From: an uncultured Rickettsiales bacterium
GTDB lineage: Bacteria; Myxococcota_A; UBA796; UBA9615; CAYRNR01
Length of the DNA: 64,000 nucleotides
Direction: 5' to 3'
Assembly (NCBI GenBank): GCA_964425605.1
Contig: CAYRNR010000033.1
Coordinates: forward strand, 31 to 64,030
Shown here: positions 51,392 to 64,000 of the stretch, piece after piece
Layout of the letters: every line of letters starts with the position of its first letter
How positions within the stretch are numbered: the stretch's first letter is position 1
Made by a program: the position numbers and the translations under genes
Notes under the pieces: generated by a model
What the model was told of the DNA's origin: nothing
Databases searched by the model: none
What the model saw: only the letters and a program-made list of their open reading frames with translations

Positions 51392-52476
51392 CAGCCCTCG
51401 CCCGCGCTCCCGTCGGAGGCTCCGCTGGTGACGCTGCGGGCGTGGTCGACGATCTTGGAGAACGAGATCTGGTCGACCCACAGGAAGAACAGCCCGAAGG
51501 CGAAGATGATGGACGTCTGGGTGACGTGGCAGACCACCGCGTAGGCCGCGCCCGAGTCCTTGTCCACGTTCAGCAGCGCCAGGCCGCCGATGATGAACGC
51601 CTCGAACACACCGGCGAACAGCGGCGGCGCAGGCAGCATCACGCCCACCACCAGGACCACCAGCAGCACCAGCCCCCCCAGCAGGCCGATGTGGTCGAAG
51701 TGGAACGCCTTGCACAGGGACCACATGCACAGCACGTTGAGGAACCAGATGAAGACGCTGTGGGTGACCATGGACAGGGCGAAGCGCGCGTCCTTCATGG
51801 TGCGGACGCCGTCGAGGAAAGACTGCATCATCCCCGCGACCTTGTGCGCCAGCCCCTTGTGCACGATCCCCACCACGGAATCCGTCCAGCGCACCGCACG
51901 GTCCTGGAGCACCAGGAACGCGAGCAGGCACCCCACGAAGGGTATGGTCGTGAACCCGATGGCCTTCTGGCCGTCGGCCACGAAGTTCATCTCGATCCCA
52001 CCGATGACGATGGCCTCGGGCAGGTCGGCGAAGATCACCGCCACGTAGAACATCAGGGCCAGGAAGAGGATGTCGATGGTGCGCTCGACCACCACCGAGT
52101 ACATGGACGCGCCGAACGGGGCGTCTGCGCGCTCGTGCAGGAGATACGGCCGCGCGAACTCGCCGAGCCTGAACGGCAGCGCCTGGATGGCGAGGAAGCC
52201 CACCGAGTTGATGCTGAACACCTGGCGGAACGAGACGGGGTGGACCTTGTTCACGATGCGGCCCCACCGCCAGGCCCGGCTGGCGTGCAGAGCGAGGAAC
52301 GACACGAAGCAGACCAGCCACCACAACTTGTCGACATCGCGGATGGCGCCGAGGAAGCGGTCCATGTCCACGTCGTGGAAGATGAGCACGAGCAGCCCGA
52401 TCCCGAGGCCGAAGCTGAACACCAGCTTCACCCACCTGAACCAGCCGCCACCCTTCTTGCCCTCGGCCCCGGTCAC
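51391..52476 (-). CDS. LPG_synthase_TM / UPF0104 flippase-like integral membrane protein
   Basis: About 8 TM helices with WRW..I motif (RAWRWGRIV). The GTG at 52476 overlaps the upstream stop (GTGA). Confidence 0.65.
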   Translation of the reverse strand: MTGAEGKKGGGWFRWVKLVFSFGLGIGLLVLIFHDVDMDRFLGAIRDVDKLWWLVCFVSFLALHASRAWRWGRIVNKVHPVSFRQVFSINSVGFLAIQALPFRLGEFARPYLLHERADAPFGASMYSVVVERTIDILFLALMFYVAVIFADLPEAIVIGGIEMNFVADGQKAIGFTTIPFVGCLLAFLVLQDRAVRWTDSVVGIVHKGLAHKVAGMMQSFLDGVRTMKDARFALSMVTHSVFIWFLNVLCMWSLCKAFHFDHIGLLGGLVLLVVLVVGVMLPAPPLFAGVFEAFIIGGLALLNVDKDSGAAYAVVCHVTQTSIIFAFGLFFLWVDQISFSKIVDHARSVTSGASDGSAGEG

Positions 52477-54368
52477 CGTGTCTGCTCCCCTCTGTCCGAA
52501 CCGCTGCGCCGGCGCCGCAAGCTCCAAACAAGCAGCAGGACCGGAGCGACCGAGGCGCCCTGCGCGGGGGCCGCGCGACATCCACGGCCGCCGAGCATGT
52601 CCTCGCGCGGGTCCGTACTCTCCAGGTACTCGTCGATATTCGCCACGCCGTCAAGGTCGGGATCGTCCAGGGAGTCGTCGACGGCCGTGTCCAGGAAGTG
52701 TGTCCACTCCCAGAGATCGGCCATCTCGTCCCCGTCCACGTCACGCGGGAGCCGGATATCGAGCTCGAAGGCGGCGCCCTCGGCGACGTGAATCACCTGT
52801 GCGTCCGCCAGCCGTCGCTCGCCGCCGCTGTACCAGGTGACCCATCCAGGATCGTCGAAACAGTAGCGGTAGGGCTCCGCCTGGAGTGTATAGGACCCCG
52901 GCACCAGCGGAGCCAGTCGGTATGACCCGTCCTCCTCGCTGGTGGCGAGCCTGGAGGGCAGCTCTGGATCGTCGGGCAGCGCCGTGACGTAGATCCGGTC
53001 CAGCGGGCGCCCCGACTCCCGTTCCCACACGTGCCCCTCGATCACCGCGGCCGTGGGCAGCGCCCGCGCGCCCAGGTCCAGGATCTCGCCCTGGACCACG
53101 TCGAACAGGTCGGCGTCGTTGCTCGACGAGCAGACACCATCGCCGCAGAGGTATCCAGCGAGCACGGTATCCTCGTTCGGGTCCACGTGGATCCGGTAGG
53201 AACCGCTGGCCAGGGTCCCGACGGAGAAGGAGCCGTCGACGTCCGTGTCCGCGCTCGCGTCGGCGCCCTCGCCCTCCGGGTAGGCGCGCACGGAGACGTC
53301 GTACAGCGGGTCGCCGAGGCCCGTCACGCTCCCTGCGACGACCCCCTGGGTTCCGAGGGCCACGTCCACGCCCGTCGTGACGCCGTCCTCGTCCACCGCC
53401 ACGGCGTCGGTCACCGCCGTGGCCAGCCCCTCACTGGAGACCTCGAGGGTGTACGACCCCGGCGAAAGCCCCGACAGGGTGTAGGTCCCGTCGAACCCCA
53501 GCGTCGCCGTGGCCTGGATCCACGACTGCTGATCGTGGCGAGCGTAGACGCCGCCGACGGTCAACGGCGCACCCTCGAGGTCCGTCGCCGTCCCCTCGAT
53601 GGTGGCGCCTGCGGGGATCACCATGTCCCAGCCATCGAGCACCTGGCCACGCAACGCCGTCACCGGCTCGGCCTCGTCGGCCGTGTACCCGGCCGGGTAG
53701 TAGACCACCGGGCGACCCGACACGGTCACCTTGAGCTCGTAGTTGCCCGGCACCGGCGTGGGGTCGTCGCTGCTGACGATGGCCGAGTCCAGGCCCACCA
53801 CGGTGTATCGGCCATCCACGGCCGTGTAGACGGTGGGGTCGATGTTGGAGTTGTAGTAGTCGAGGCCGCGCACGTCGATGCGGGCCCCCTCGACGGGGTC
53901 TCCGGTCGAGCCGTCGGTGACGATCCCGCTGATGGTCCCGCCGCGCGGCAGGTTGAAGTCGATGCCGTCCGCGTACCGATCGTCGCGCAGGTCCAGCAAG
54001 GTCCCGCTGCAGTAGAAGTACATGTCGGCGTAGTACGCGCCGATGAAGTCCTGCCCGTCCAGGGGCCATGCCTTGAGCCGGTGGAAGTCCGCGGGCAGGC
54101 CCATGGCGTGGTAGGCGCCGTCCGCGTCGGTGGTGAAGATCTCGTAGTGGGCCTGGACGTCGAACACCACCACGGACATGCCAGCGATGGACTCGCCGTC
54201 GGGGTACGAGACCACACGGCCCTCCACGTGGCTCGCGCCGCCCGGGTCCACCTGTCGGTTCCCGGGCCACGTCGCTCCCTCGATGACCTCCTCGTCCGCG
54301 CACCCTGGCGACGCGAGGACAAACCACGCGACGACGAGCCAGGCAGTGGAGGCTGGGCTGGATCTCAC
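52473..54368 (-). CDS. lipoprotein with repeated carboxypeptidase-regulatory-like domains and MYXO-CTERM-like tail
   Basis: Lipobox LASPGC. Repeated G.V.D..G.P..GA.V units. DxDxDG-type calcium-like motifs, then GC-RAAPAQGASVAPVLLLVWSLRRRR. Confidence 0.7.
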   Translation of the reverse strand: MRSSPASTAWLVVAWFVLASPGCADEEVIEGATWPGNRQVDPGGASHVEGRVVSYPDGESIAGMSVVVFDVQAHYEIFTTDADGAYHAMGLPADFHRLKAWPLDGQDFIGAYYADMYFYCSGTLLDLRDDRYADGIDFNLPRGGTISGIVTDGSTGDPVEGARIDVRGLDYYNSNIDPTVYTAVDGRYTVVGLDSAIVSSDDPTPVPGNYELKVTVSGRPVVYYPAGYTADEAEPVTALRGQVLDGWDMVIPAGATIEGTATDLEGAPLTVGGVYARHDQQSWIQATATLGFDGTYTLSGLSPGSYTLEVSSEGLATAVTDAVAVDEDGVTTGVDVALGTQGVVAGSVTGLGDPLYDVSVRAYPEGEGADASADTDVDGSFSVGTLASGSYRIHVDPNEDTVLAGYLCGDGVCSSSNDADLFDVVQGEILDLGARALPTAAVIEGHVWERESGRPLDRIYVTALPDDPELPSRLATSEEDGSYRLAPLVPGSYTLQAEPYRYCFDDPGWVTWYSGGERRLADAQVIHVAEGAAFELDIRLPRDVDGDEMADLWEWTHFLDTAVDDSLDDPDLDGVANIDEYLESTDPREDMLGGRGCRAAPAQGASVAPVLLLVWSLRRRRSGSDRGEQTR

Positions 54369-55579
54369 GGGGCGGGCGCCTTGTCCGCGGTCCCCTGCTC
54401 CCGGTCCAGCTGCTCGTCCACCCGCTCGGCCAGGGCGATGGCGAAGCGGTAGGCGAGCGTGATGCTGCCGCGGCTGAGCAACTTGATGCGATCGCGGCCG
54501 GTGTGCACCGGGGTCGCCGGGCGCCCCGACCGCAGCCCCTTGAGGGTGATGGCCGGGTAGCGGTGCCGAGACGCCACGCCCGCGTCGCTCAGACCGAGCA
54601 ACAACATCGGCCGTACCTGCTTGTAGTCCTCCTCCCGAGCCAGCGCCGCCGCGAGCCCGGGCAGGAGCGGGTGGTAGGTCTCACGCGAAGGGGTCTTCTC
54701 GCCCACGGCGAAGCAGATCCGCCCTGCGCCGACGTCGTCGATGTTCACCACGAAGGTGTTCTCGGGCGGCAGCGTCCGACCGAAGGTCTTGAGGAACGCC
54801 TCGACACCGCCGCAGTCCGCCTCACGGCTACCCGTCACGAGGAAACACGGCTCCGCGTGCTGGAGGGGGTGGCTGGCGAAGTACTCGGCAAGCGCCGCCA
54901 GCACGGCCAGGCCCGATCCGTTGTCGTTGGCGCCCCGGGCGGGTCGCGGAAGGCTCCAGTCCATCGACAGCAGGGTCACCACCGCGAACAGGACCACCGG
55001 GATCATCAGCAGTACGTCGAGGACCTCGAGGTGGATGCCCGGAAATCGAAGGGCGATCAGCGCGACCTGGATCCACCCTACCTCCAGGGCCAGCCGCATC
55101 GGGTGCACCTTGGTCGTGCTGTCCGCGCCCTGGAAGAACCGCCCCAGCCAGCGGTTGTGGATCAATCCCCGGCGCGCCACGTCGCCGTGGGCGACGAAGA
55201 GGATGCGGGGGATGTCCTCGTCCTTGCCCGCCATCCTGCGGGCGATGAGGTTGCTGGAGATACCCTTGGGTAGCAACCACCGGAACATCCGCCGGCGGTA
55301 CGCGGCCTCCCCGTGCAGCGACAGGATCGTCAACAGGGTCAGCACCAGCCCCGCCTTGGGGTTGGTCACGCCCCACAGCCCCCCCAGCACCAGACAGAAG
55401 CTGTGGATGGCCCACACGAGCCCAGGGTTGAGATGGCAGACACACCCCTCGACCCGCGCCTGGTAGCCCAGGCGGTTGAGGAGCCCAGCCAGCGCCTCCT
55501 GGCTCGCCCGCTCGCCACGCCCTCCGGCGGTGCGGTCGCCGAACTGCCTCAACTGCTCGATGAACGGCCGCGCTTCCAC
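54365..55579 (-). CDS. membrane-embedded M28-family metallopeptidase
   Basis: FVAHGDV and RGANDNGSGLAVL M28 motifs, interrupted by TM helices. Confidence 0.7.
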   Translation of the reverse strand: MEARPFIEQLRQFGDRTAGGRGERASQEALAGLLNRLGYQARVEGCVCHLNPGLVWAIHSFCLVLGGLWGVTNPKAGLVLTLLTILSLHGEAAYRRRMFRWLLPKGISSNLIARRMAGKDEDIPRILFVAHGDVARRGLIHNRWLGRFFQGADSTTKVHPMRLALEVGWIQVALIALRFPGIHLEVLDVLLMIPVVLFAVVTLLSMDWSLPRPARGANDNGSGLAVLAALAEYFASHPLQHAEPCFLVTGSREADCGGVEAFLKTFGRTLPPENTFVVNIDDVGAGRICFAVGEKTPSRETYHPLLPGLAAALAREEDYKQVRPMLLLGLSDAGVASRHRYPAITLKGLRSGRPATPVHTGRDRIKLLSRGSITLAYRFAIALAERVDEQLDREQGTADKAPAP

Positions 55580-55667: not shown

Positions 55668-56954
55668 ATGAGCGGAGTCGGGGAACACATCACATTCGAG
55701 GCCGCCGGGCGGAGGTTCGTGTTCGTGGTGGCGTCGTCGGCCCTGTTCGAGGTGGACGGGGAGCTCGACGACGCCGTCTGGACTCAGCTGGCCTCGGTCG
55801 GAGCGACACGAAGGACGCGGGACCCCGCGCCGGACGACGGCACGCTGGCCACCCTGGTGCTGCAGCTGCGGAGGTCGTGTAACCTCAGGTGCGCCTACTG
55901 CTACTGCGATCCCGAACCGGGCGACGGAGCGCCAGACCGTATGTCCGCGGAGACGGCCCGCGCGGCGGTGGACCTCTTGTTCGCCCACCTGCCCCCTCGG
56001 GGGCCCGCCGGCATCACCTTCTTCGGGGGAGAACCGTTGCTGGAGCTCCCCCTGCTGCGCGCCACGGCCACCCACGCGCTACAGCGAGCCGCGGAGCTCG
56101 ACCGGGAGGTCACCTTCTCCCTGACCACCAACGGCACCACCGTGACCGAGGAGGCGGCGGATCTTCTGGCGGAGATCGGCGCGCGGGTCACCGTCAGCAT
56201 CGACGGCGACCGCGAGCTCCACGACCACTACCGCGTCTTCGCCGACGGCACGGGCTCGTACGACGCAGTGAAGGCCGGCGTGAGGCTCCTCGAGCGGGGA
56301 CTCCGCCCCAGCGCCCGGGCGACACTCACGGCCGACTCGCCCGATCCAGTACCCGTGGTGGACCACCTGCTCGGCCTGGGCTTCGAGTCCGTGGGGGTGT
56401 CCGTCGCGGACGTGGCGGATCCATCGCTGGCTCCGGCCGACGCGGCGCTGGAGTTGATCGAAGCTGGGATGGAGACCCTGGCCGATCGCTACCTGGACCA
56501 GGCGCTGGCCGGCCGTCACCTGGGATTCGCCAACCTCGACGGCTTGCTGCGCACGCTGCACCGCGGGATGAACCGGGACTACCCGTGCGGCGCAGGGCTA
56601 CGGCTCGCGTGCTGCGACACGGACGGGACGCTCTACGCGTGCCATCGTCTGGCAGGGCGCGCCGCGTACGCCGTGGGGACCCTCGACGGGGGCCTGAACC
56701 GCCGCGACCGGCTGCGCGACCTGAGCCTCCGCGCGCGCACCGGCTGCCACAGCTGCTGGGCGCGGCACCTGTGCGGCGGCGGCTGCCACCACGCCCGACT
56801 CGTCGCGGGGCGCGACGTGGAACAGTTGCAGGTGTGTGCCTGGCTGCGGCGATGGATGCTCAAGGGCCTGCAGGTGTACGCGGAGCTGGTGGTGAGAGGG
56901 ACGCCGTTCCTGGCGGAATTCGTCGATCCTGCACCGCCGTGCGCGGTAGAGTAG
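55668..56954 (+). CDS. qhpD: radical SAM / SPASM peptide-modifying enzyme, QhpD-like
   Basis: CNLRCAYC (CxxxCxxC). C-terminal SPASM cysteines (CGAG...CC...C..., CHSCWARHLCGGGCHH). Followed 17 nt later by the Cys-rich peptide gene. Confidence 0.75.
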   Translation: MSGVGEHITFEAAGRRFVFVVASSALFEVDGELDDAVWTQLASVGATRRTRDPAPDDGTLATLVLQLRRSCNLRCAYCYCDPEPGDGAPDRMSAETARAAVDLLFAHLPPRGPAGITFFGGEPLLELPLLRATATHALQRAAELDREVTFSLTTNGTTVTEEAADLLAEIGARVTVSIDGDRELHDHYRVFADGTGSYDAVKAGVRLLERGLRPSARATLTADSPDPVPVVDHLLGLGFESVGVSVADVADPSLAPADAALELIEAGMETLADRYLDQALAGRHLGFANLDGLLRTLHRGMNRDYPCGAGLRLACCDTDGTLYACHRLAGRAAYAVGTLDGGLNRRDRLRDLSLRARTGCHSCWARHLCGGGCHHARLVAGRDVEQLQVCAWLRRWMLKGLQVYAELVVRGTPFLAEFVDPAPPCAVE

Positions 56955-56971
56955 CGGCGCGGAGGCGAGCG

Positions 56972-57262
56972 ATGGCCAAGGGAATCCGACCGATCAACCT
57001 CAAGGCCCACCTGCTCATGCGGCGAGGCGACGTCCAGGGGTGCGCATTCAGCGAATGCTCCTCCACGTTCGCGCCCGGCTGGGAGGTGGGCGAGTTCGGG
57101 GATCCGGACCCCTGTCCCTGGAAGTTCGACCTGGAGCTGTGCTGGGCCACCTGCTACTGGACCGGCCAGGTACCCGACATGTACATGTACCCCGACTGGC
57201 TCGGCGCCTGCGCGAACATCAACCTCGACTGGCGCAACCTGTGCACCATCCCGGACAACTGA
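56972..57262 (+). CDS. qhpC: 96-aa Cys/Trp/Asp-rich peptide, QhpC (QHNDH gamma subunit)-like precursor
   Basis: GGAGG 6 nt before the ATG. Seven Cys and six Trp. The Cys-to-Glu/Asp and Cys-to-Trp spacings match the QhpC cross-link pattern (see findings). Only the last 96 codons of listed ORF 55889..57262 are real. Confidence 0.65.
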   Translation: MAKGIRPINLKAHLLMRRGDVQGCAFSECSSTFAPGWEVGEFGDPDPCPWKFDLELCWATCYWTGQVPDMYMYPDWLGACANINLDWRNLCTIPDN

Positions 57263-57264
57263 CC

Positions 57265-58266
57265 ATGCGCTGCCTCCTGCTCCTCCTCGCCCTGGTGGCG
57301 GTCACTCCGGCCCACGCGGAGAACGCCTGGGTGGCGTCCACGTCCATCCGGATCATCGACCTGGACTCCGGCGCGCTGGTGGGGAGCACCACCGTCGCGG
57401 CCGATCAGGTGATCCGCGAGATCGCCTTCGACGACAGCGGCGCGCGCGCCTTCGTGGCGTCCATGGGCGGTCTGTTCGTCGTGGACACGGCGTCCCTGGG
57501 CGTGCTGGAGCGGATCAGCGACCGGCCCACCTGCTCGGTGGACTTCCGCGATGGCACCCTCGCAGCGCTCCACCTGAAGCCCGCGGGCGACGGGCTCGCC
57601 GAGCGGGATCAGGGGATCCCGTCCACGGTGACCCTGGCCCTGTACGACGCGGCCACCGGCGCAACGCTGGCGCAGGCCGAGGTGCACGGCCGACCGCTGC
57701 GGGTCCGCGCCACCGCAGATCGCCTCTTCGTGCTCGACTCCAACGAGGCGGTCCTGACGGTGTTCGACCGGGCCGCGTCGCGGATGGGAGAGGTGGATCT
57801 GGCTCCGGACGCAGAAGACGGGCAGGCGTTCCTGTGCGCCGATCTGAGCCTGTCCGGCGAAGGCACCCTCGCCGTGGCGCGCAGTTCGTCGGCGGGTTCG
57901 GCCGTCGTGATGGTGTGGCCCGCCGACGCCGTGGCCGACTCCAGGGTGTCCGTGGTGGACGTCGGGGCCGAGCACCGCGTCCGCGGCGCCGCGTTCGCGA
58001 TGGATTCCGAGCACGTGTACGCCACGGCCATGGGCCACGTCGCGCGCCTGTCGACGAGCGCCCCGGCGGCCACCTGGCAGCACGTCGGGCACCGCTTCGC
58101 CGCGGTGGAGACCTCCCCCAGCGGGGCGTACGTCGTGATGGCCACGCCGATCTTCGACGAGCAGCGCGGCACGGGCGGTGTGCTGGTGGCCGACGCCGAG
58201 GGCCGGACCCTGCGGGTGATCGAGCTGGTGGACATCTCCCCCTACACCCTCGCCGTCCAGCCGTGA
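57265..58266 (+). CDS. qhpB: secreted beta-propeller protein, QhpB (beta subunit)-like
   Basis: Signal peptide MRCLLLLLALVAVTPAHA. Repeated beta-strand blade-like units. Its position directly after the peptide gene matches qhpDCB order. Confidence 0.55.
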   Translation: MRCLLLLLALVAVTPAHAENAWVASTSIRIIDLDSGALVGSTTVAADQVIREIAFDDSGARAFVASMGGLFVVDTASLGVLERISDRPTCSVDFRDGTLAALHLKPAGDGLAERDQGIPSTVTLALYDAATGATLAQAEVHGRPLRVRATADRLFVLDSNEAVLTVFDRAASRMGEVDLAPDAEDGQAFLCADLSLSGEGTLAVARSSSAGSAVVMVWPADAVADSRVSVVDVGAEHRVRGAAFAMDSEHVYATAMGHVARLSTSAPAATWQHVGHRFAAVETSPSGAYVVMATPIFDEQRGTGGVLVADAEGRTLRVIELVDISPYTLAVQP

Positions 58267-59120
58267 CCGCGACGGCAGGCTTCACCGTCTCCGCCCGCGG
58301 TGATCGCCCCCTGGCCCAGCGCGCCCACCTCCCCGACTGGCTCCGCTCCGCGCGGCGCTCCCACCTGCGGATCGGCTCGTCCCTGTGCCACCGCCGGATG
58401 CCCGACGCCGCGGCCCTGGAGCGTGCGATCGGTCGGTCACGCGACGCGGGGCTGGGCCTGGAGGTGGCGACACCAGTCGTGGGTGACGTCGCCCTGGAGG
58501 CGCTCACACGGCTGCTGCTGCAGCTGGCCGAGGAGGCACCCGACGCCGAGGTCGCCGTCAACGATTGGGGAGTCCTGCGGGTCCTGATCCGCCGGGGTCG
58601 CTCCCTGCGCATCGTCGCCGGGCGACTCCTCCACCGACAGATGCGCGATCCCCGCCTGGTGACCCTGGAGCCCCGGGATCTGGGCCACGACGACTGGCCG
58701 GAGGCCTGGCGCTGGGGGTCTTCGTCCTCCCCTGCGTGGCGGGAGTTCGCCTCGGCCTGCGGCATGACCCGCTTCGAGATGGACTGGGCCCGTCCCGGTC
58801 CCGGGCCGACCCCGCCGACGGGGCTGGACGCCTCGATCCACCTCCCCTTCACGCTGGTGGGGCTGGGCAGGACGTGCCTCGACCACGGTCCCGCGGGACC
58901 GGCGGACGGGTACGGCGGTGACGAGCCCTGCGGCCAGGCCTGCACCGGGAGGCCTCGCGGGGTCGTGGAGTCGAGCTCCGCGGCGGGATCCGTGGAGCTG
59001 CTGCGGGAGGGACGCGCCGAGCTGGTTCGCCAGCCGCCCGAGGAGCTGGAGCGGGCCCGGACGTGGCTGGTCACACCGCCGCGGGGCACACGCGTGATCG
59101 TCGCCGGCGAGGGGGACTGA
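58263..59120 (+). CDS. U32-family Fe-S protein, UbiV-like
   Basis: The GTG overlaps the preceding stop. GSSLCHRR, VAVNDWGVLRVL, IVAGRLLH and the C-x17-C-x3-C cluster align by eye with E. coli UbiV. Confidence 0.6.
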   Translation: MTATAGFTVSARGDRPLAQRAHLPDWLRSARRSHLRIGSSLCHRRMPDAAALERAIGRSRDAGLGLEVATPVVGDVALEALTRLLLQLAEEAPDAEVAVNDWGVLRVLIRRGRSLRIVAGRLLHRQMRDPRLVTLEPRDLGHDDWPEAWRWGSSSSPAWREFASACGMTRFEMDWARPGPGPTPPTGLDASIHLPFTLVGLGRTCLDHGPAGPADGYGGDEPCGQACTGRPRGVVESSSAAGSVELLREGRAELVRQPPEELERARTWLVTPPRGTRVIVAGEGD

Positions 59121-59121
59121 C

Positions 59122-60084
59122 GTGGATCTGCTCGCGCCCCTCTCCGCTGCCGAGGAGGTCGAGCCCCTGGTCCGGGCCGGCGCCACGGACCTGTACTGTG
59201 GCCTGTTCGACCGGGGCTGGGCGCGGCGCTGGGGGCTGGGGAGCTGGCCCAACCGTCGCGGGCCCGGGCCGGCGAATCTGGGCGATCTGGAGGAGCTGGA
59301 ACGAACAGGTCAGGAGGCGGCCGCAGCGGGAGTCCGGCTCCACCTGGTGCTCAACTCGCCGCTGCTGGGCGACGAGCAGGAGGCCGCCGTGCTCGCCCTC
59401 GCCCGGACGGCCGTGGAGGAGCTGGGGGTCCACGGGCTGATCGTCGCCAACCCGGGCCTGTTGCGTCCCCTCGCCGACACCGGCGCCCTGGTCACGGCCA
59501 GCACCCTGTGTACGGTGCGCAACGCCGAGGCCGCGCTGTTGCTGGCCGACCTGGGCGCTCATCGTATCGTGCTCAGCCGACAGCTGGCCCTGGCGGAGAT
59601 GCGCACCATCCGCGACAGGACGCCCGGGCTGGAGCTGGAGGCGTTCGTGCTCAACGACGCGTGCGTCTTCGAGGAGGGCAGCTGCTTCACCGCTCACGCG
59701 CTGCCGGGCTGGGGCGGAACGTACTGCCTGGGTGATCGTCGGGTGCTCGAGGAGTCCGACGCCTGGGCGCGTCACCGGGCGTGGACCGACGCCCTGGGGG
59801 CCCGCGGCTTCTCCGCGGCGGGCCTCCCCCGCGGGCCGTGTGGCCTGTGCGCGCTGCCCGCGCTGGCGGACATGGGGATCGACGGCGTCAAGGTCGTCGG
59901 CCGGGAGGCGCACCCGTACAGGAAGGTCCGGTCGGTCCAGATGGTGCGTCACGTGCTAGACGGCCTCGACGCGGGCGGCCCCGAAGAGGCCTCCTCGCGC
60001 GCCCTGGCGCTGCGAGACGACGCGGGCGGCTGCCGCTCGGGCCTCTCGTGTCTGTACCCGGAGGCTCGCCGCTTCGATGAGTGA
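59122..60084 (+). CDS. U32-family protein, UbiU-like
   Basis: N-terminal LLAPLS..E..PLVRAGATDLYCG. EAFVLNDACVFEEGSC matches the E-x-F...C-x4-G-x-C part of the U32 signature. GPCGLC is also present. Confidence 0.7.
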   Translation: MDLLAPLSAAEEVEPLVRAGATDLYCGLFDRGWARRWGLGSWPNRRGPGPANLGDLEELERTGQEAAAAGVRLHLVLNSPLLGDEQEAAVLALARTAVEELGVHGLIVANPGLLRPLADTGALVTASTLCTVRNAEAALLLADLGAHRIVLSRQLALAEMRTIRDRTPGLELEAFVLNDACVFEEGSCFTAHALPGWGGTYCLGDRRVLEESDAWARHRAWTDALGARGFSAAGLPRGPCGLCALPALADMGIDGVKVVGREAHPYRKVRSVQMVRHVLDGLDAGGPEEASSRALALRDDAGGCRSGLSCLYPEARRFDE

Positions 60085-61819
60085 GTCGTCCCCCTCCCGC
60101 TGGCACGAGCTGCTCCGCGTTCTGAGCTGGCTGCGGCCCCACTGGCGGGTCCAGGTGGGGCTGCTGGGGCTCATGGCGCTGGGCACTGGGCTCTCCCTGG
60201 CCTACCCCTGGCTGCTCAAGCTGGTGTTCGACCAGGTCTTCGCCCGCGACCGCTACGAGCTGCTGCCCTGGCTCGCGGCGGGCATCGCAGCGTCCGCCGT
60301 GGCCGGCGCCGCGTTGAGCGCCCTCGCCTCGTGGCATCAGGCGCGCCTCGCCGTGACCGTGCTCCTCGAGCTGCGGACCGCCCTGTTCGACCGGCTCCAG
60401 CGGTTGAGCCTGGACTACGTCCAGCGGGCCCGGCTGGGGGACCTGCTCAGCCGCCTCGGCGGGGACCTCAACGAGGTGCAGACGGTCGCGACGTCCACCG
60501 TCATCCCGCTGGCGGGCGCGCTGCTGAACCTGACGGGTTCGGTGGTCCTGCTGGCCTGGATCTCCCCCACCCTGCTCGGCGTGGCGCTGCTCTTCGCGCC
60601 CGCGGCGTGGGCCCTGGTGCGCCTGTTCCGCCCCCGCGTCGAGGCGCGGGCGCTTCAGGTTCGCGAGCGCAACGCCGACCTGGGCAGTCAGATGGTGGAG
60701 AGCCTCCAGGAGGCGCGGTTCGTGCGCGCCAGCGGCACCGCCGATCTCGAGGTGTCGCGGTTCGCGGCCCTCAACCGCGCCCTGGCGACGAGCGTGCTCG
60801 GCTTCCAGAAGCTCTCCCTGGCGTATGGAGGCACAGGGCAGGTGCTCGTGGCGATCAACGGGCTGGCCATCTTGCTCGTGGGAGCCGCGCTGGTGCGCCA
60901 GGAGATGCTCACCGTGGGCGATCTCGTGGCGTTCGCGCTGTATCAGGCCCGACTGTTCGGTCCGGTGCGGGGCCTGACCGCCATGGCCCTCGGCCTCCAC
61001 CGCGCGCGCGCCTCGGTGAGGCGCGTATTCGAGGTCCTGGACGAGGACCTCCCCGCGGCCCCTTCCGGCGGCGGCAAGGCGCTGGACGCTCTCGAGGGGC
61101 GCGTGGAGCTTCAGCATGTGGGCTTCGCCTACGATCCGGGGCACCCCGTGCTCGAGGGCGTCTCGTTCATCGTCCCGCCCGGGCGCTCCCTCGCCGTGGT
61201 GGGGCCTTCGGGGGTGGGCAAGAGCACGCTGGTAGACCTCCTGCTGGGCCTGCGCCAACCGACGGCGGGAACGGTGAAGATCGACGGACACCCCCTCGAG
61301 ACCCTGGATCCGGGGTCGTTCCTCCCTCGCATGGCCCTGGTGAGCCAGCGCCCCGCGGTCTGGTCGGACACCTGGCGCGCGAACCTGCTCTACGGCATCG
61401 AGCCACGCGACGACCGCGAAGTGTGGGAGGCGCTGCAGCAGGTGGGCCTGCTGTCGTTCGTCGAACGCCAGGGCCTCGACGCCCACGTGGGTCAGCGGGG
61501 GGCACGCCTCAGCGAGGGGCAACGCCAGCGCCTCGGCCTGGCGCGCGCGCTGCTGCGGAGGCCCGCCGTGCTGGTGCTGGACGAGGTCACCGCCGGCCTC
61601 GACTGGGAGGCGGATCGGCTGGTCGGCGACCTGCTGGCGTCGCTGGACGGCCGCGTGACGCGCATCCTGGTCACCCACCGCCTCTCCCTGTCCGCCATCG
61701 CCGACGAGGTGGTGGTGCTCCAGGAGGGTCAGGTCGTGCAGCGTGGCGACCACGCCGCGCTCAAGGCGGCGCCGGGACTCTACCGGGATCTGCTGCGACG
61801 GCAGGTGGATGTCGGCTGA
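60077..61819 (+). CDS. ABC exporter (fused TMD-NBD), QhpF-like
   Basis: Six-TM N-terminal half. Walker A GPSGVGKST, signature LSEGQRQR, Walker B VLVLDE. Confidence 0.8.
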   Translation: MSESSPSRWHELLRVLSWLRPHWRVQVGLLGLMALGTGLSLAYPWLLKLVFDQVFARDRYELLPWLAAGIAASAVAGAALSALASWHQARLAVTVLLELRTALFDRLQRLSLDYVQRARLGDLLSRLGGDLNEVQTVATSTVIPLAGALLNLTGSVVLLAWISPTLLGVALLFAPAAWALVRLFRPRVEARALQVRERNADLGSQMVESLQEARFVRASGTADLEVSRFAALNRALATSVLGFQKLSLAYGGTGQVLVAINGLAILLVGAALVRQEMLTVGDLVAFALYQARLFGPVRGLTAMALGLHRARASVRRVFEVLDEDLPAAPSGGGKALDALEGRVELQHVGFAYDPGHPVLEGVSFIVPPGRSLAVVGPSGVGKSTLVDLLLGLRQPTAGTVKIDGHPLETLDPGSFLPRMALVSQRPAVWSDTWRANLLYGIEPRDDREVWEALQQVGLLSFVERQGLDAHVGQRGARLSEGQRQRLGLARALLRRPAVLVLDEVTAGLDWEADRLVGDLLASLDGRVTRILVTHRLSLSAIADEVVVLQEGQVVQRGDHAALKAAPGLYRDLLRRQVDVG

Positions 61820-62546
61820 CCTCCCCCTCGTCGCCGTGCTGGACTCGGGTGTGAACCCTCGCCATCCGCACCTGACCCACGTGACCCTCGAGGGATTCGC
61901 CGCACCGGACGACTCCGGCGATCTGGACGAGGCGGCTCCCCCCTGCGACGTCCACGGTCACGGAACCGCCGTGACCGCGGCGGTGTTCCGGCGCGTCCAG
62001 CGCGGGCGCCTCCTCGGCATCCGCGTCCTCGACGCCAGGCTGGCGGGTCACCATCAACTCCTCGCGGACGCCATCTCTCTGGCCGCGAGGCGGGGCGCCC
62101 GCCTGATCAACGTGTCGATGGGCACCTCCGACGAAGCGGCACGACCGCGACTGGCCGAGGCCGTCCGGTTCGCCCAAGCGGGTGGTGCCATCGTGGTCGC
62201 CGCCGTGCCTCCGGTCGGGTGTGGCTGGCCAGCAGACCTACCCGGCGTCCTCGGCGCGGTGGCGGATCCCGCGTGCCCGCCGGACCGGGCATACCCGGTG
62301 GATCCCGACCGAGGCTTGCCCGCCGCGCCCGAATGCGCTTTGCTCCGGTATCGGGCCCACTCCGACGCCATCCCCCCCGGCGGGGCCGCTCGGCGCGGGA
62401 ACCTCGGCGGCAGCAGCCTGGCCGCCGGTCACCTGACCGGCCTGGTCGCGGCGCTGCTCACGCGCGAGCCCCAGCTGGATCTCACGGGGATACTCCAGAG
62501 ACTGGGCCCGGAGACGGAAGGAGGGTGTCCATGGGACGACGTCTAG
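61809..62546 (+). CDS. small subtilisin-like S8 serine peptidase, QhpE-like
   Basis: VAVLDSGV (Asp), HGHGTAV (His), GGSSLAAGHLTG (Ser). No signal peptide. About 245 aa. Confidence 0.7.
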   Translation: MSADLPLVAVLDSGVNPRHPHLTHVTLEGFAAPDDSGDLDEAAPPCDVHGHGTAVTAAVFRRVQRGRLLGIRVLDARLAGHHQLLADAISLAARRGARLINVSMGTSDEAARPRLAEAVRFAQAGGAIVVAAVPPVGCGWPADLPGVLGAVADPACPPDRAYPVDPDRGLPAAPECALLRYRAHSDAIPPGGAARRGNLGGSSLAAGHLTGLVAALLTREPQLDLTGILQRLGPETEGGCPWDDV

Positions 62547-64000
62547 CCGCCGCGCTGGTGGCGCTGCTGATGACCGCAGCCACCCCGACCGCGCACGCCA
62601 ATCAGGGCGACATCATGGGGATCGGCGCGGCCGCCATGGGCCGCGGGGGCGGCGGGGTGGCCATCGCCGACGATGTCTTCGCGCTCTACTACAACCCAGC
62701 GGGTATGGCCCAGCTCGAGCGCGGTGCCTTCGCCTTTGGCGCCCACGGCGGTCATATGCGGCTCCAGGGCTTCCCGCCCATCGCCTGGGACGCCAACAAC
62801 GACGGCGTCATCAACCCCGAGAACCCCTACGACCGCTGGGTCGTCGAGGACTACGACTACGACGATCCCAGCGGCTTCCACGCCGGGCTGGTCAAGAGCT
62901 ACACCAAGTGGTTGCGCATGGGCCTGTGCCTGACCCTGCCGTGGAAGCGGATCATCGCCGTACAGCAGGAGGATCCGTACCTCCCCTACTACGTCCGCTG
63001 GAAGAACCGCCCCCAGCGGCTGAGCCTGTACGCCGGCGCCTCCATCCAGCCCGTGGACGGGCTGGCCTTCGGCGTGAGCGTCGCCATCCTGGCGCGCTGC
63101 AAGCTGGTGCTGGACTTCCAGATCGACGCCACGGTGGACGACTCGCAGCTCCAGGACGATCCCGAGGAGTCCCTGAACCTGGACCTGATCGTCAACCCAC
63201 AATACATCGAGCTCGACGTGCGCCCCGCGTTCGCGCCCATCCTCGGCTTCCGGCTGGACATGAAGCTGGTGCACGAGTCCCTGGCCGGCTGGACCTGGGG
63301 CGTGACCTACCGCCACCCCATCGACCTGCTCATCGAACCCACCATCCTGGGCCTGGACCTCTACGGGCGGGCGGAGGATCTGGGCTCGCTGGAGTCGATC
63401 ATCGTCCCGCTCCAGGCGCAGATCTATTTCTCCATCCTCGACTACTTCACGCCGCGGCAGCTCGCGCTGGGGACCGCGCTGCGCAAGGAGTTCTTCACGG
63501 CGTACGTGGACCTGACGTGGAACCAGTGGTCCAAGGCCGCGCCCTCGGTGGGTCGCATCGACGAGTCCGCCACAGAGGTCAAGATCGGGCTGGTGGACAT
63601 GGACCCGCGGGTGATCAACGCGCGGGAGATCGATCCCCTCGAGTGGAGGGACACCTGGGTGTTCCGCGCCGGCTTCGAGATCACCCCCAAACCCAAGCAC
63701 ATCGGCGGCAAGTTCGAGGAGATCGGCGTCGTGTTCCGCGGGGGGTATGCCTACGACCCCACCTGGATACCCGAACAGACCCGCATGACGAACTTCATGG
63801 ACTCGGACCATCACCTGGTGTCCTTCGGCACCGGCGTGCGCGTGGGCGACCCCTTCGGTGTGATCGAGGGGCCCATCAGCCTCGACGTGTTCCTTCAGCT
63901 GCAGAAGATGGTCTCCCGTACCCACACGAAGGACGGCGACCTGGTCGAAGACGGCACCGTGCCCGCCGGGTATCCCCTGGCCGGCGAGATCACCACCGAC
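62531..64000 (+). CDS. FadL/TodX/OMPP1-family outer-membrane transport protein (3' end outside window; absent from the ORF track)
   Basis: Own translation: MGRRLAAALVALLMTAATPTAHANQGDIMGIGAAAMGRGGGGVAIADDVFALYYNPAGMAQL... stays open to the window end. The signal peptide and the GA.AMGRGG...A..YNPAG motif are typical of the family. AGGAGGG precedes the ATG, and the start overlaps the S8 gene by 16 nt. Confidence 0.65.
   Translation, partial: MGRRLAAALVALLMTAATPTAHANQGDIMGIGAAAMGRGGGGVAIADDVFALYYNPAGMAQLERGAFAFGAHGGHMRLQGFPPIAWDANNDGVINPENPYDRWVVEDYDYDDPSGFHAGLVKSYTKWLRMGLCLTLPWKRIIAVQQEDPYLPYYVRWKNRPQRLSLYAGASIQPVDGLAFGVSVAILARCKLVLDFQIDATVDDSQLQDDPEESLNLDLIVNPQYIELDVRPAFAPILGFRLDMKLVHESLAGWTWGVTYRHPIDLLIEPTILGLDLYGRAEDLGSLESIIVPLQAQIYFSILDYFTPRQLALGTALRKEFFTAYVDLTWNQWSKAAPSVGRIDESATEVKIGLVDMDPRVINAREIDPLEWRDTWVFRAGFEITPKPKHIGGKFEEIGVVFRGGYAYDPTWIPEQTRMTNFMDSDHHLVSFGTGVRVGDPFGVIEGPISLDVFLQLQKMVSRTHTKDGDLVEDGTVPAGYPLAGEITTD

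What the first reader, a model, noticed from the sequence alone, without database searches (positions are those of the whole stretch)
55668..62546. qhp-like tryptophylquinone peptide maturation cluster in an atypical configuration
The gene order is: radical SAM/SPASM enzyme, 96-aa Cys/Trp-rich peptide, secreted beta-propeller, two U32 proteins, ABC exporter, small subtilisin-like protease. All are on one strand with overlapping or near-overlapping junctions. This reproduces the D-C-B...F-E core of the quinohemoprotein amine dehydrogenase operon (qhpADCBEFGR of Paracoccus/Pseudomonas). In that operon QhpD makes Cys-to-Asp/Glu thioethers in the gamma peptide QhpC, QhpE removes the leader, QhpF exports, and QhpB is the propeller subunit. 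Two canonical parts are missing here (QhpA, QhpG) and two non-canonical genes are inserted. That suggests a variant quinoprotein system rather than a standard QHNDH.
Basis: partly seen in the sequence, partly recalled or inferred. Interest (0 to 1): 0.8.

Follow-up and report, generated by a model that had tools for sequence, protein, structure and literature searches.

The report
Heme-less tryptophylquinone enzyme cluster with U32 hydroxylases
This operon encodes a stripped-down relative of quinohemoprotein amine dehydrogenase. The oxygen-dependent flavoenzyme that normally builds its tryptophan-derived quinone cofactor is missing, and a pair of iron-sulfur "U32" proteins sits in its place, which points to an undescribed oxygen-independent way of making the cofactor.

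Summary
Seven co-directional, overlapping or near-abutting genes (55668-62546, + strand) encode: a QhpD-like radical SAM/SPASM enzyme, a QhpC-like 96-aa peptide, a secreted 7-bladed propeller, two U32-type proteins, an ABC exporter and a QhpE-like S8 protease. An eighth coupled gene, a FadL-like outer-membrane protein, runs off the window end.

The peptide keeps every residue that forms the three thioethers and the cysteine tryptophylquinone (CTQ). No QhpA (no CXXCH anywhere in 64 kb) and no QhpG is present.

The two inserted genes resemble the UbiU/UbiV iron-sulfur hydroxylase pair, and each has four invariant Cys. The pair is not an accident of this genome:
- Of 38 metagenome loci that carry this U32b type and have enough upstream flank, 35 also carry the gamma peptide.
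- Geobacter argillaceus has a complete qhpA-D-C-B-U32-U32-F-E operon.
- Four canonical proteobacterial loci carry QhpG and no U32. A QhpG profile gave no significant hit in any U32-bearing locus.

Best reading: the U32 pair replaces QhpG as an O2-independent tryptophan dihydroxylase. The window's lineage has also lost the heme subunit, leaving a two-subunit CTQ quinoprotein. All of this rests on genomic inference. I found no paper linking U32 proteins to CTQ.

The parts
55668..56954 (+). QhpD-like radical SAM/SPASM peptide maturase (428 aa). Predicted to make the three Cys-to-Asp/Glu thioethers in the gamma peptide.
   Evidence: Best NCBIfam hit is TIGR03906 quino_hemo_SAM (E 7.7e-88, 295 bits, below the equivalog cutoff of 453). 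PF04055 also matches. The sequence contains a CNLRCAYC (CX3CX2C) motif and a Cys-rich C-terminus. The gene lies directly upstream of the gamma gene in all related loci.
56972..57262 (+). QhpC-like gamma-subunit precursor (96 aa): a leader of about 24 aa plus a core that carries the CTQ site.
   Evidence: NF037958 QH_gamma scores 53.2 bits (cutoff 50) and PF08992 scores 45.1 (cutoff 25). It aligns to PDB chains 1jmx_G and 1jju_C (E 9e-12 and 2.6e-9), with the equivalents of Cys7, Glu16, Cys27, Asp33, Cys37, Cys41, Trp43 and Asp49 all conserved (numbering from my own knowledge of the 1JJU structure). These residues are invariant in 9 lineage sequences and 37 metagenome sequences. Two extra Cys near the C-terminus are invariant in the window type.
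57265..58266 (+). Secreted 7-bladed beta-propeller (333 aa, Sec signal ending ...TPAHA/ENAW). Divergent counterpart of the QhpB beta subunit.
   Evidence: No Pfam or NCBIfam hit. The AF2 model has pLDDT 91.9. Its top Foldseek PDB hit is 1jju_B (QHNDH beta, E 9e-13, TM 0.71), but other 7-bladed propellers score about equally. hhalign of the window-type profile against the QhpB profile from U32-type qhp operons gives probability 99.1%, E 7.8e-19, over 304 columns. It occupies the same operon position and has nearly the same length as QhpB (333 vs 337 aa).
58263..59120 (+). U32a (285 aa): a divergent, UbiV-like partner subunit of the U32 Fe-S hydroxylase pair.
   Evidence: No Pfam or NCBIfam hit. 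Four Cys (C42, C205, C223, C227; CXnCX17CX3C) are invariant across 22 diverse homologues; compare UbiV's CXnCX12CX3C (PMC6747719). The AF2 model has pLDDT 83.8, and its top PDB hit is the U32 peptidase 5d88 (E 2.3e-4, TM about 0.4). hhalign to U32b gives E 3.5e-4 over 80 columns. Family members always lie next to a PF01136 gene.
59122..60084 (+). U32b (320 aa): a UbiU-like U32 family Fe-S protein. Proposed catalytic partner for O2-independent hydroxylation of the gamma-peptide Trp.
   Evidence: PF01136 Peptidase_U32 matches at E 1.1e-30, 107 bits. The best NCBIfam hits are UbiU (54 bits) and TrhP (51 bits), both far below the equivalog cutoffs. Invariant C181-X6-C188-X13-C202-X37-C240 resembles UbiU's CX6CX16CX38C. 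Loci found with this subtype's motifs carry gamma in 35 of the 38 with enough flank.
60077..61819 (+). ABC half-transporter (580 aa). QhpF-like exporter of the modified gamma peptide.
   Evidence: PF00664 plus PF00005, and MsbA/TAP-like NCBIfam hits. It has no N-terminal peptidase domain. The same position is occupied in Geobacter and in most metagenome loci. It is absent in three relatives (L008, L010, L013).
61809..62546 (+). Small subtilisin-like S8 protease (245 aa). QhpE-like leader peptidase.
   Evidence: Best NCBIfam hit is NF049966 QhpE (E 8.8e-36, 123 bits, cutoff 165). PF00082 also matches.
62531..64000 (+). FadL/TodX-family outer-membrane channel. The first 490 of about 504 aa are present; the gene is cut by the window end. 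It is translationally coupled to the operon. Proposed to take up a hydrophobic substrate.
   Evidence: It overlaps the S8 stop codon by 16 nt and is 92% identical to the full-length L004 protein, which hits PF03349 Toluene_X at 40 bits (cutoff 29.7). It is present downstream in all window-lineage loci and in the marine relatives L026 and L029.

Best explanation
The cluster is an operon for a two-subunit, heme-less cysteine-tryptophylquinone (CTQ) quinoprotein together with its maturation machinery.

Proposed steps (inferred unless marked):
1. The 96-aa QhpC-like precursor is bound through its conserved leader (I-R/K-P-x-N-x-K-A). The QhpD-like radical SAM/SPASM enzyme crosslinks it into three Cys-to-Glu/Asp thioethers. 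The sequence shows that all donor and acceptor residues are conserved.
2. A cytoplasmic heterodimer of two [4Fe-4S] U32 proteins (U32a is UbiV-like, U32b is UbiU-like) hydroxylates the CTQ-precursor Trp at two ring positions without O2. Prephenate is the probable oxygen donor, as proposed for UbiU/V. The pair thereby takes the place of the FAD/O2-dependent peptidyl-tryptophan dihydroxylase QhpG, which is absent.
3. The S8 protease removes the leader and the ABC transporter exports the peptide.
4. In the periplasm the peptide assembles with the Sec-exported 7-bladed propeller, a divergent QhpB. No di-heme alpha subunit (QhpA) is encoded in the cluster. Electrons from the quinone would therefore go to a separate, unidentified acceptor, as in methylamine dehydrogenase.
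5. The coupled FadL-like outer-membrane channel probably admits a hydrophobic amine substrate.
For: Gene content, order and coupling.

Gamma peptide. It passes the curated QH_gamma cutoffs. All crosslink residues and the CTQ Trp are conserved against the PDB gamma chains and across 46 sequences.

U32 pair.
- Each protein has four invariant Cys in UbiV-like and UbiU-like spacing (against PMC6747719).
- U32b is PF01136.
- The top structural hit of the U32a model is the only solved U32 structure, 5d88.
- U32a-family genes are always adjacent to a PF01136 gene.

Link between the pair and qhp.
- Of 80 metagenome loci recovered with qhp-type U32b motifs, 35/38 with at least 3.2 kb upstream carry gamma, and 33/34 with at least 4.8 kb upstream carry the radical SAM gene. 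All components are on the same strand.
- Geobacter argillaceus carries qhpA(TIGR03908 above cutoff)-D-C-B-U32a-U32b-ABC-S8, followed by an aldehyde:ferredoxin oxidoreductase.

Mutual exclusion with QhpG.
- Four canonical plasmid-borne qhp loci each carry a QhpG-like flavoprotein. One was verified against PDB 7ctq 'peptidyl tryptophan dihydroxylase' (E 2e-43). None carries a U32 gene.
- A QhpG profile hit only those four loci, among 106 sources totalling 1.18 Mb.
- U32a and U32b profiles hit 90 and 102 loci, but none of the four canonical ones.

Established knowledge. QhpG needs O2 and is essential for CTQ (PMC7876137). U32 proteins are linked to O2-independent aromatic hydroxylation with prephenate as the O donor (PMC6747719, PMC10990095, PMC11574389).

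Absence of QhpA. There is no homologue and no CXXCH in a coding frame in the window, and no homologue in any window-type locus.

Propeller-QhpB homology.
Against: - No biochemistry exists for any step here, and direct hydroxylase activity has not been shown in vitro for any U32 protein.
- U32a's membership of the U32 fold rests on weak scores: TM about 0.4, and hhalign probability 37% to U32b.
- Only 64 kb of this genome is visible, so qhpA or qhpG could lie elsewhere.
- The mutual-exclusion sample holds only four canonical loci, all from Pseudomonadota plasmids.
- The U32b loci were retrieved with motifs taken from qhp-type U32b, so they form one clade rather than an unbiased sample.
- In canonical QHNDH, QhpA has been credited with a part in final CTQ formation (Chem Soc Rev table). 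How the Cys-Trp bond and the quinone would form without QhpA is unexplained.
- No electron acceptor, aldehyde dehydrogenase or regulator was found in the window.
- The propeller scores about as well against generic YVTN propellers as against QhpB.
Confidence: 0.6

Rival explanations
1. The U32 pair belongs to the gamma-peptide maturation system but does something other than Trp dihydroxylation. Examples: a different hydroxylation or oxidation (for instance involving the extra Cys or another aromatic residue), formation of the Cys-Trp bond, or a chaperone or proteolytic role. The quinone oxygens would then come from a QhpG-like enzyme encoded elsewhere, or from a periplasmic oxidant.
For: Only context links the pair to the peptide. 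The family name 'peptidase U32' reflects reported protease activity in a few members. The window-type gamma has two additional invariant Cys. Only 64 kb of the genome was searched.
Against: A dedicated S8 leader protease is already present. Both U32 proteins keep Fe-S-type four-Cys motifs, which are typical of the hydroxylase subfamilies. QhpG is missing from every U32-type locus and present in every canonical locus examined, which is what substitution predicts. The Geobacter-type gamma lacks the second extra Cys yet keeps the U32 pair.
Confidence: 0.2
2. This is an ordinary quinohemoprotein amine dehydrogenase whose qhpA (and possibly qhpG) genes simply lie elsewhere in the genome, that is, a split operon.
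For: Published work says that the arrangement of qhp genes varies between species (PMC7876137). The rest of the genome cannot be searched with these tools. L081 shows that U32-type clusters can be split.
Against: None of about 15 window-type loci has QhpA within 8-10 kb, including distant marine relatives at about 43% U32b identity. Among Geobacter-type loci, 19 of the 28 with at least 7 kb upstream flank have QhpA immediately upstream. The window-type propeller has diverged beyond the reach of the NCBIfam QH_beta model, and the gamma peptide has gained two invariant Cys. Both are as expected if the alpha-subunit contact were lost. No CXXCH motif occurs in a coding frame in 64 kb.
Confidence: 0.15
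3. The cluster makes an exported, thioether-crosslinked peptide natural product (a ranthipeptide-like RiPP), not an enzyme subunit. The propeller would be an unrelated periplasmic protein.
For: The radical SAM enzyme also scores well to the PapB ranthipeptide maturase (255 bits). The leader peptide, protease and ABC exporter follow the usual logic of RiPP clusters.
Against: The peptide passes the QH_gamma equivalog cutoff and keeps the CTQ Trp and Cys. The propeller gene is separated from the peptide gene by 2 nt, is conserved in every locus, and is homologous to QhpB. The peptide is 72-98% identical across relatives, while the flanking proteins are 43-80% identical, which fits a structural or catalytic subunit.
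Confidence: 0.05

Closest known systems
Quinohemoprotein amine dehydrogenase (QHNDH) qhpADCBEFGR operon of Paracoccus denitrificans / Pseudomonas putida (PDB 1JJU, 1JMX; PMC7876137)
   Same: It shares the gamma peptide with the same three Cys-Asp/Glu crosslink positions and the CTQ Cys/Trp. It shares a QhpD-type radical SAM/SPASM maturase, a 7-bladed propeller directly after the gamma gene, a small S8 leader protease and an ABC exporter. The leader peptide motif is also shared.
   Different: There is no di-heme alpha subunit QhpA and no flavoprotein QhpG. No AraC regulator or aldehyde dehydrogenase lies nearby. Two U32 Fe-S genes are inserted between the propeller and the exporter. The propeller is too diverged for the QH_beta model. 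The gamma peptide has two additional invariant Cys. A FadL-like outer-membrane gene is appended.
UbiU-UbiV, the O2-independent hydroxylase pair of anaerobic ubiquinone biosynthesis (PMC6747719, PMC10990095), and the single-protein U32 RNA hydroxylases TrhP and RlhA
   Same: Two adjacent genes are present, one a clear PF01136 protein and one more divergent. Each has four conserved Cys with UbiU-like (CX6CX13CX37C) or UbiV-like (CXnCX17CX3C) spacing. The predicted job is hydroxylation of an aromatic ring at more than one position without O2.
   Different: They are not orthologues: 54 bits against a 440-bit UbiU cutoff, and U32a gets no UbiV hit. No UbiT/SCP2 partner is present. The gene order is V-like then U-like. 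The proposed substrate is a tryptophan side chain in a crosslinked peptide. That would be a new substrate class, since known U32 substrates are prenylated phenols and RNA bases (PMC11574389).
Geobacter-type qhp operon found here (Geobacter argillaceus VLLN01000015.1, locus L014, and about 19 metagenome loci)
   Same: The D-C-B-U32a-U32b-F-E order is identical, and all seven proteins are homologous.
   Different: The Geobacter type keeps QhpA upstream (TIGR03908 above cutoff) and has a recognisable QhpB (QH_beta, 84 bits). It often has a downstream aldehyde:ferredoxin oxidoreductase. It lacks the FadL-like gene and the second extra Cys.
Methylamine dehydrogenase / aromatic amine dehydrogenase (TTQ enzymes)
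   Same: The architecture would be similar: a 7-bladed propeller heavy subunit plus a small crosslinked quinone-bearing subunit, no built-in heme, and electrons passed to a separate soluble carrier.
   Different: The cofactor differs (TTQ, made by the di-heme MauG). The small subunit is not homologous. No mau genes are present. This is an analogy only.

Membership tests
QHNDH (qhp) system | Gamma subunit QhpC with Cys7, Cys27 and Cys41 paired to Glu16, Asp33 and Asp49, plus the Cys37-Trp43 CTQ site | tested here: met
   NF037958 scores 53.2 against cutoff 50, and PF08992 scores 45.1 against 25. The residue-by-residue alignment to 1jmx_G and 1jju_C conserves all eight positions. They are invariant in 46 related sequences.
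QHNDH (qhp) system | QhpD radical SAM/SPASM maturase adjacent to qhpC | tested here: inconclusive
   The best-scoring family is TIGR03906 (295 bits), but that is below the equivalog cutoff of 453. The Geobacter operon that includes QhpA is also below cutoff (352 bits). Adjacency to the gamma gene holds in 33/34 loci.
QHNDH (qhp) system | Beta subunit QhpB, a 7-bladed propeller | tested here: inconclusive
   There is no TIGR03907 hit. The confident model is a 7-bladed propeller and its top PDB hit is 1jju_B, but TM 0.71 is matched by unrelated propellers. The profile-profile match to the QhpB of U32-type operons gives probability 99.1%, E 7.8e-19. This supports homology and a positional equivalent. 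Complex formation was not tested.
QHNDH (qhp) system | Di-heme cytochrome c alpha subunit QhpA (the 'hemo' in the name) | tested here: not met
   tblastn with Geobacter QhpA finds nothing in the window or in any window-type locus. No CXXCH motif occurs in a coding-like frame of the 64-kb window. QhpA is absent from L023, L026-L028 and L034 despite at least 7 kb of upstream flank. The rest of the genome cannot be tested.
QHNDH (qhp) system | FAD-dependent peptidyl-tryptophan dihydroxylase QhpG | tested here: not met
   A QhpG profile was built from four canonical loci, one of them verified against PDB 7ctq. It gives no significant hit in the window or in any U32-type locus (best E 0.0047, in a non-qhp locus). 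The rest of the genome cannot be tested.
QHNDH (qhp) system | QhpE leader protease and QhpF ABC exporter | tested here: met
   The S8 protein scores best to NF049966 QhpE (123 bits, under the 165 cutoff). The Geobacter protein scores 131 bits. An ABC half-transporter is adjacent. Assignment of the exporter rests on position only.
U32 Fe-S hydroxylases (UbiU/UbiV, TrhP, RlhA) | Peptidase_U32 (PF01136) domain | tested here: met
   U32b scores 107 bits. U32a has no Pfam hit. Its model's top PDB hit is the U32 structure 5d88 (E 2.3e-4, probability 1.00, TM about 0.4), and hhalign to U32b gives E 3.5e-4. So the feature is met for U32b and only weakly supported for U32a.
U32 Fe-S hydroxylases (UbiU/UbiV, TrhP, RlhA) | Four conserved Cys that ligate a [4Fe-4S] cluster | tested here: met
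   In U32a, C42, C205, C223 and C227 are invariant in 22 sequences. In U32b, C181, C188, C202 and C240 are invariant in 11 sequences. The spacing is comparable to the published UbiV and UbiU motifs. Cluster binding itself cannot be tested here.
U32 Fe-S hydroxylases (UbiU/UbiV, TrhP, RlhA) | Orthology to UbiU/UbiV (ubiquinone pathway) | tested here: not met
   The UbiU equivalog model gives 54 bits against a cutoff of 440. U32a gets no UbiV hit. The pair resembles UbiU/V in organisation but is not a member of those equivalogs.
U32 Fe-S hydroxylases (UbiU/UbiV, TrhP, RlhA) | O2-independent, prephenate-dependent hydroxylation activity | not testable with these tools
   This needs anaerobic reconstitution or 18O-shikimate labelling.

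The most novel reading that the evidence does not exclude
A clade of two-subunit U32 iron-sulfur oxidases acts on a protein substrate. It would install the two oxygens of cysteine tryptophylquinone without O2, giving anaerobes an oxygen-independent route to a protein-derived quinone cofactor. In the window's lineage the enzyme has also shed its cytochrome subunit, which would make it a new heme-less gamma-beta CTQ dehydrogenase with its own outer-membrane uptake channel.
Probability: 0.5. Interest if true: 0.85.

Novelty: new variant of a known kind. Interest (0 to 1): 0.75.

Why it matters
All described routes to tryptophan-derived quinone cofactors use O2 or peroxide: QhpG, LodB/GoxB and MauG. 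Yet QHNDH operates during anaerobic growth of denitrifiers (the title of Schmitt et al. 2019, seen), and a complete qhp operon sits in Geobacter argillaceus, which to my knowledge is a strict anaerobe.

A U32 pair that replaces QhpG would explain how anaerobes build CTQ. It would also give the poorly understood U32 "oxidases" their first protein substrate. That substrate is soluble and can be followed by mass spectrometry, which suits the in vitro assay the field still lacks (PMC10990095).

Separately, the alpha-less version would be a new minimal quinoprotein architecture, with unknown substrate and unknown redox partner.

The U32a partner family is large (2271 clusters at 50% identity) and has no Pfam model, so it is an annotation gap.

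Tried and rejected
1. Direct sequence tests of the propeller gave nothing useful. NCBIfam and Pfam had no hit. phmmer against PDB found nothing. The A1 profile against PDB hit the YVTN protein 1l0q, not QhpB. hhalign against the single Geobacter QhpB gave E 0.0065, probability 6%. Only deeper profiles on both sides gave a clear signal.

2. Exact-sequence look-ups of the window's own propeller found no record, so I could not obtain the source contig's annotation or accession.

3. Taxonomy is unresolved. The seven related genomes are titled 'uncultured Rickettsiales bacterium'. That label looks doubtful to me at 68-75% GC.

4. U32a profiles against PDB by sequence gave only noise.

5. The promoter and terminator scan of the 88-bp divergent region upstream of the operon found nothing.

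6. Bulk Pfam and NCBIfam scans of 81 unassigned flanking ORFs from 16 long loci showed no recurrent flavin monooxygenase, cytochrome or cupredoxin. Only the top 25 families are listed in that mode, so I followed up with the dedicated QhpG profile.

7. Schmitt et al. 2019 (PMC6657600), on anaerobic QHNDH in Aromatoleum, is not held.

8. I considered and rejected two readings. A sulfatase-maturase reading of the radical SAM enzyme fails on score (85 vs 295 bits). A protease reading of the U32 pair is unlikely because a dedicated S8 protease is present and the Fe-S Cys motifs are conserved.

Full report
**1. What is in the sequence**

Between 55668 and the window end lie eight co-directional + strand genes. 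Each has the coding signature of this 67-74% GC genome, with GC3 of 0.83-0.93. The first seven are:

| Gene | Coordinates |
|---|---|
| radical SAM/SPASM enzyme | 55668-56954 |
| 96-aa peptide | 56972-57262 |
| propeller with a Sec signal | 57265-58266 |
| U32a | 58263-59120 |
| U32b | 59122-60084 |
| ABC half-transporter | 60077-61819 |
| S8 protease | 61809-62546 |

The junctions are gaps of 17, 2 and 1 nt or overlaps of 4, 8 and 11 nt.

However, a FadL/TodX-like outer-membrane protein gene starts at 62531, overlaps the S8 stop by 16 nt, and runs off the window.

Upstream, an M28 peptidase gene is transcribed divergently. The rest of the window holds Mu-like prophage genes and housekeeping genes. 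It has no cytochrome c motif and no QhpA homologue.

**2. Family assignments**

- The radical SAM enzyme scores best to QhpD (TIGR03906, 295 bits) and far above sulfatase maturase (85 bits). It falls below the equivalog cutoff of 453.
- The peptide passes the curated gamma-subunit cutoffs (NF037958, 53.2 vs 50; PF08992, 45.1 vs 25). It aligns with the crystallised gamma chains 1jmx_G and 1jju_C. Every residue of the three thioethers (Cys7-Glu16, Cys27-Asp33, Cys41-Asp49) and of CTQ (Cys37, Trp43) is conserved (the residue numbering is from my knowledge of 1JJU).
- The S8 protease scores best to QhpE (123 bits, cutoff 165).
- U32b is a clear PF01136 protein whose nearest curated families are UbiU and TrhP, at non-orthologous scores.
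- The propeller and U32a have no Pfam or NCBIfam hit.

**3. The propeller**

Twenty-three homologues exist in the 5.8-billion-protein collection. An AlphaFold model built on them is confident (pLDDT 91.9) and is a 7-bladed propeller.

Its top Foldseek hit in the PDB is the QHNDH beta subunit 1jju_B (E 9e-13, TM 0.71; 337 vs 333 residues). Unrelated 7-bladed propellers reach the same TM-score, so the fold alone does not decide the question. Single-sequence and shallow profile comparisons with QhpB failed.

A deeper comparison succeeded. I used a 29-sequence window-type profile and a 36-sequence profile of the QhpB proteins from the qhpA-containing U32-type operons. These QhpB proteins hit NCBIfam QH_beta. 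The result was probability 99.1%, E 7.8e-19, over 304 co-linear columns.

Taken with the identical operon position, this makes the propeller a strongly diverged QhpB counterpart.

**4. The two inserted genes form a UbiU/UbiV-like pair**

U32b keeps C181-X6-C188-X13-C202-X37-C240 invariant. U32a keeps C42...C205-X17-C223-X3-C227 invariant, including in distant homologues.

The published ligand motifs are CX6CX16CX38C for UbiU and CXnCX12CX3C for UbiV. In UbiV the first Cys lies far upstream, as it does here (PMC6747719).

The U32a model (pLDDT 83.8) has the only solved U32 structure, 5d88, as its top PDB hit. The scores are weak: E 2.3e-4, TM about 0.4. hhalign between the U32a and U32b alignments gives E 3.5e-4 over 80 columns.

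The U32a family is large and has no Pfam model: 2271 clusters at 50% identity with E <= 1e-3. In every context I inspected it lies beside a PF01136 gene. These contexts were Desulfobacterium, Bathyarchaeia, a multi-radical-SAM cluster, and others. It therefore behaves as the second subunit of a two-component U32 enzyme.

**5. The pair is tied to qhp, not to this genome**

All eight distinct window-lineage loci keep the order radical SAM - gamma - propeller - U32a - U32b. The most distant one (43% propeller identity) lacks the exporter and the protease.

A distant U32a homologue led to Geobacter argillaceus. Its operon reads: QhpA (TIGR03908 above cutoff), QhpD-like, gamma (112 bits), QhpB-like, U32a, U32b, ABC, S8. 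An aldehyde:ferredoxin oxidoreductase follows.

A metagenome scan with qhp-type U32b motifs returned 80 loci. I annotated them with phmmer and counted:

| Component | Loci with enough flank | Loci carrying it |
|---|---|---|
| gamma | 38 (>= 3.2 kb upstream) | 35 |
| radical SAM | 34 (>= 4.8 kb upstream) | 33 |
| ABC | 46 (>= 2 kb downstream) | 42 |
| QhpA | 28 (>= 7 kb upstream) | 19 |

All components are on the same strand.

Two architectures emerge:
- A Geobacter type with QhpA, spanning GC 0.46-0.72.
- A window type without QhpA. It has the window-type propeller, a gamma peptide with two extra invariant Cys, and usually the FadL-like gene (L023, L026-L029, L034; for gamma).

**6. QhpG and the U32 pair exclude each other in the sample**

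I took four canonical qhp loci from proteobacterial plasmids: Paracoccus pantotrophus, Pseudomonas nitroreducens, Cupriavidus basilensis and Leisingera caerulea. Each has a flavoprotein gene beside the qhp genes. The annotations are 'NAD(P)-binding protein', 'FAD-dependent monooxygenase' (twice) and 'tryptophan 7-halogenase'. None has a U32 gene. The Paracoccus protein matches PDB 7ctq 'peptidyl tryptophan dihydroxylase' at E 2e-43.

I built a profile from the four flavoproteins and searched all 106 held sequences (1.18 Mb, six frames). It hit only the four canonical loci. The next best hit was E 0.0047, in a non-qhp locus. Conversely, the U32a and U32b profiles hit 90 and 102 loci but none of the four canonical ones.

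**7. Mechanistic reading**

QhpG is the FAD- and O2-dependent enzyme that adds both oxygens to the CTQ-precursor Trp of crosslinked QhpC, and it is essential for active QHNDH (PMC7876137).

U32 proteins are currently viewed as Fe-S enzymes for O2-independent hydroxylation of aromatic rings. UbiU/V act at three ring positions and take the oxygen from prephenate. Known substrates are ubiquinone precursors and RNA bases only (PMC6747719, PMC10990095, PMC11574389).

The simplest account of sections 4-6 is that the U32 pair is the oxygen-independent substitute for QhpG. I put this at about 0.6. That the pair takes part in gamma maturation in some way I put at about 0.8. The remaining steps follow the canonical pathway by homology.

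Without QhpA, the window-type product would be a gamma-beta quinoprotein that passes electrons to a separate carrier, an organisation analogous to methylamine dehydrogenase. Neither the carrier nor the substrate is identified. The coupled FadL-like channel hints at a hydrophobic substrate. Canonical QhpA has been listed as contributing to CTQ formation. How CTQ would form without QhpA is unexplained.

**8. Novelty**

Full-text searches returned nothing relevant for these combinations: U32 with tryptophylquinone, QHNDH with U32, 'peptidase U32' with radical SAM/RiPP/hydroxylation, and tryptophylquinone with 'O2-independent'.

A 2025 review of protein-derived cofactors lists only QhpG and QhpA for CTQ in QHNDH. 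NCBIfam release 20 has no model for either U32 subtype.

I therefore class the finding as a new variant of a known system. Within it sits a potentially important sub-finding that is more general than this window.

**9. Limits**

- Everything beyond gene content is inference from sequence and context.
- Only 64 kb of the genome is visible.
- The canonical comparison set is small, and the U32b-anchored set is clade-biased.
- The fold assignment of U32a is weak.
- The organism is not identified. The record titles read 'uncultured Rickettsiales', which looks doubtful to me at this GC content.

Noticed in passing
window, roughly 12000-42000 (ORFs not mapped individually): A set of Mu-like prophage genes is present: Portal_Mu, Mu-like gpT major head, Mu F, Gam, Gp36/37/45/48, tail sheath, minor tail protein and a DNA methylase (aggregate Pfam scan). 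This looks like a Mu-type prophage upstream of the qhp-like operon.
   Followed up: no
L016:10913-12028 and L027:6644-7975: In some alpha-less relatives, a ChaN/Tiki-like 'Cofac_haem_bdg' (PF04187) gene is inserted between U32a and U32b (E 5e-37 and 3.5e-35). A heme-binding protein inside a cluster that has lost the heme subunit is suggestive, but I cannot explain it.
   Followed up: partly
L063:1800-2858 and L100:1929-2858: Two loci intermediate between the window type and the Geobacter type have a secreted protein of about 300 aa directly upstream of the radical SAM gene. It has no CXXCH motif. It gives a weak hit to QhpA domain IV (PF09100, 23.4 bits, cutoff 25). It may be a heme-less remnant of the alpha subunit. 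These loci also carry an extra propeller-like ORF of about 400 aa between QhpB and U32a.
   Followed up: partly
L018:1-10921: A U32 plus U32a-like pair lies at the end of a cluster with at least three radical SAM genes and several unannotated ORFs, and no gamma peptide was detected. This could be another peptide-modification system that uses a U32 pair.
   Followed up: no
L014:14269-16002 and L071:11372-13093: In Geobacter-type operons an aldehyde:ferredoxin oxidoreductase (AFOR_N/AFOR_C) follows the S8 gene directly. That position is taken by the NAD-dependent aldehyde dehydrogenase in the aerobic canonical loci. This fits an anaerobic amine-to-acid pathway.
   Followed up: partly
window 50243-55579 (- strand) and the matching flanks of L001, L004, L016, L023, L026, L029: The divergently transcribed neighbours are conserved even in distant marine relatives of the window type: an M28 peptidase, a CarboxypepD_reg-repeat protein and an LPG_synthase_TM protein. 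Downstream genes are conserved too: a trypsin-like protease, a TPR+Zincin_1 protein and a metallo-beta-lactamase-fold protein. I cannot tell whether this reflects function or only shared ancestry.
   Followed up: partly
L007-L013 (record titles): All seven species-representative genomes with the window-type propeller are MAGs titled 'uncultured Rickettsiales bacterium', yet the loci have 68-75% GC. The taxonomic label looks wrong to me, and the true lineage is unknown.
   Followed up: no
L019:5985-7822, L020:6036-7798, L021:5903-7819: The U32a-like family (about 265 aa, no Pfam model, 2271 clusters at 50% identity) pairs with PF01136 genes in Desulfobacterota, Bathyarchaeia and other lineages. 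Neighbouring genes there include benzoyl-CoA-reductase/2-hydroxyacyl-CoA-dehydratase-like genes, FAD_binding_4/CCG genes, or radical SAM genes. This is a widespread, unannotated two-subunit U32 enzyme class.
   Followed up: partly
L081:5367-11511 and L080:7044-9038: There are exceptions to the pattern. L081 has the radical SAM gene followed directly by U32a-U32b-ABC-S8, with no gamma or propeller gene between them. L080 (GC 0.41) has the U32 pair with no qhp genes within 8 kb.
   Followed up: partly
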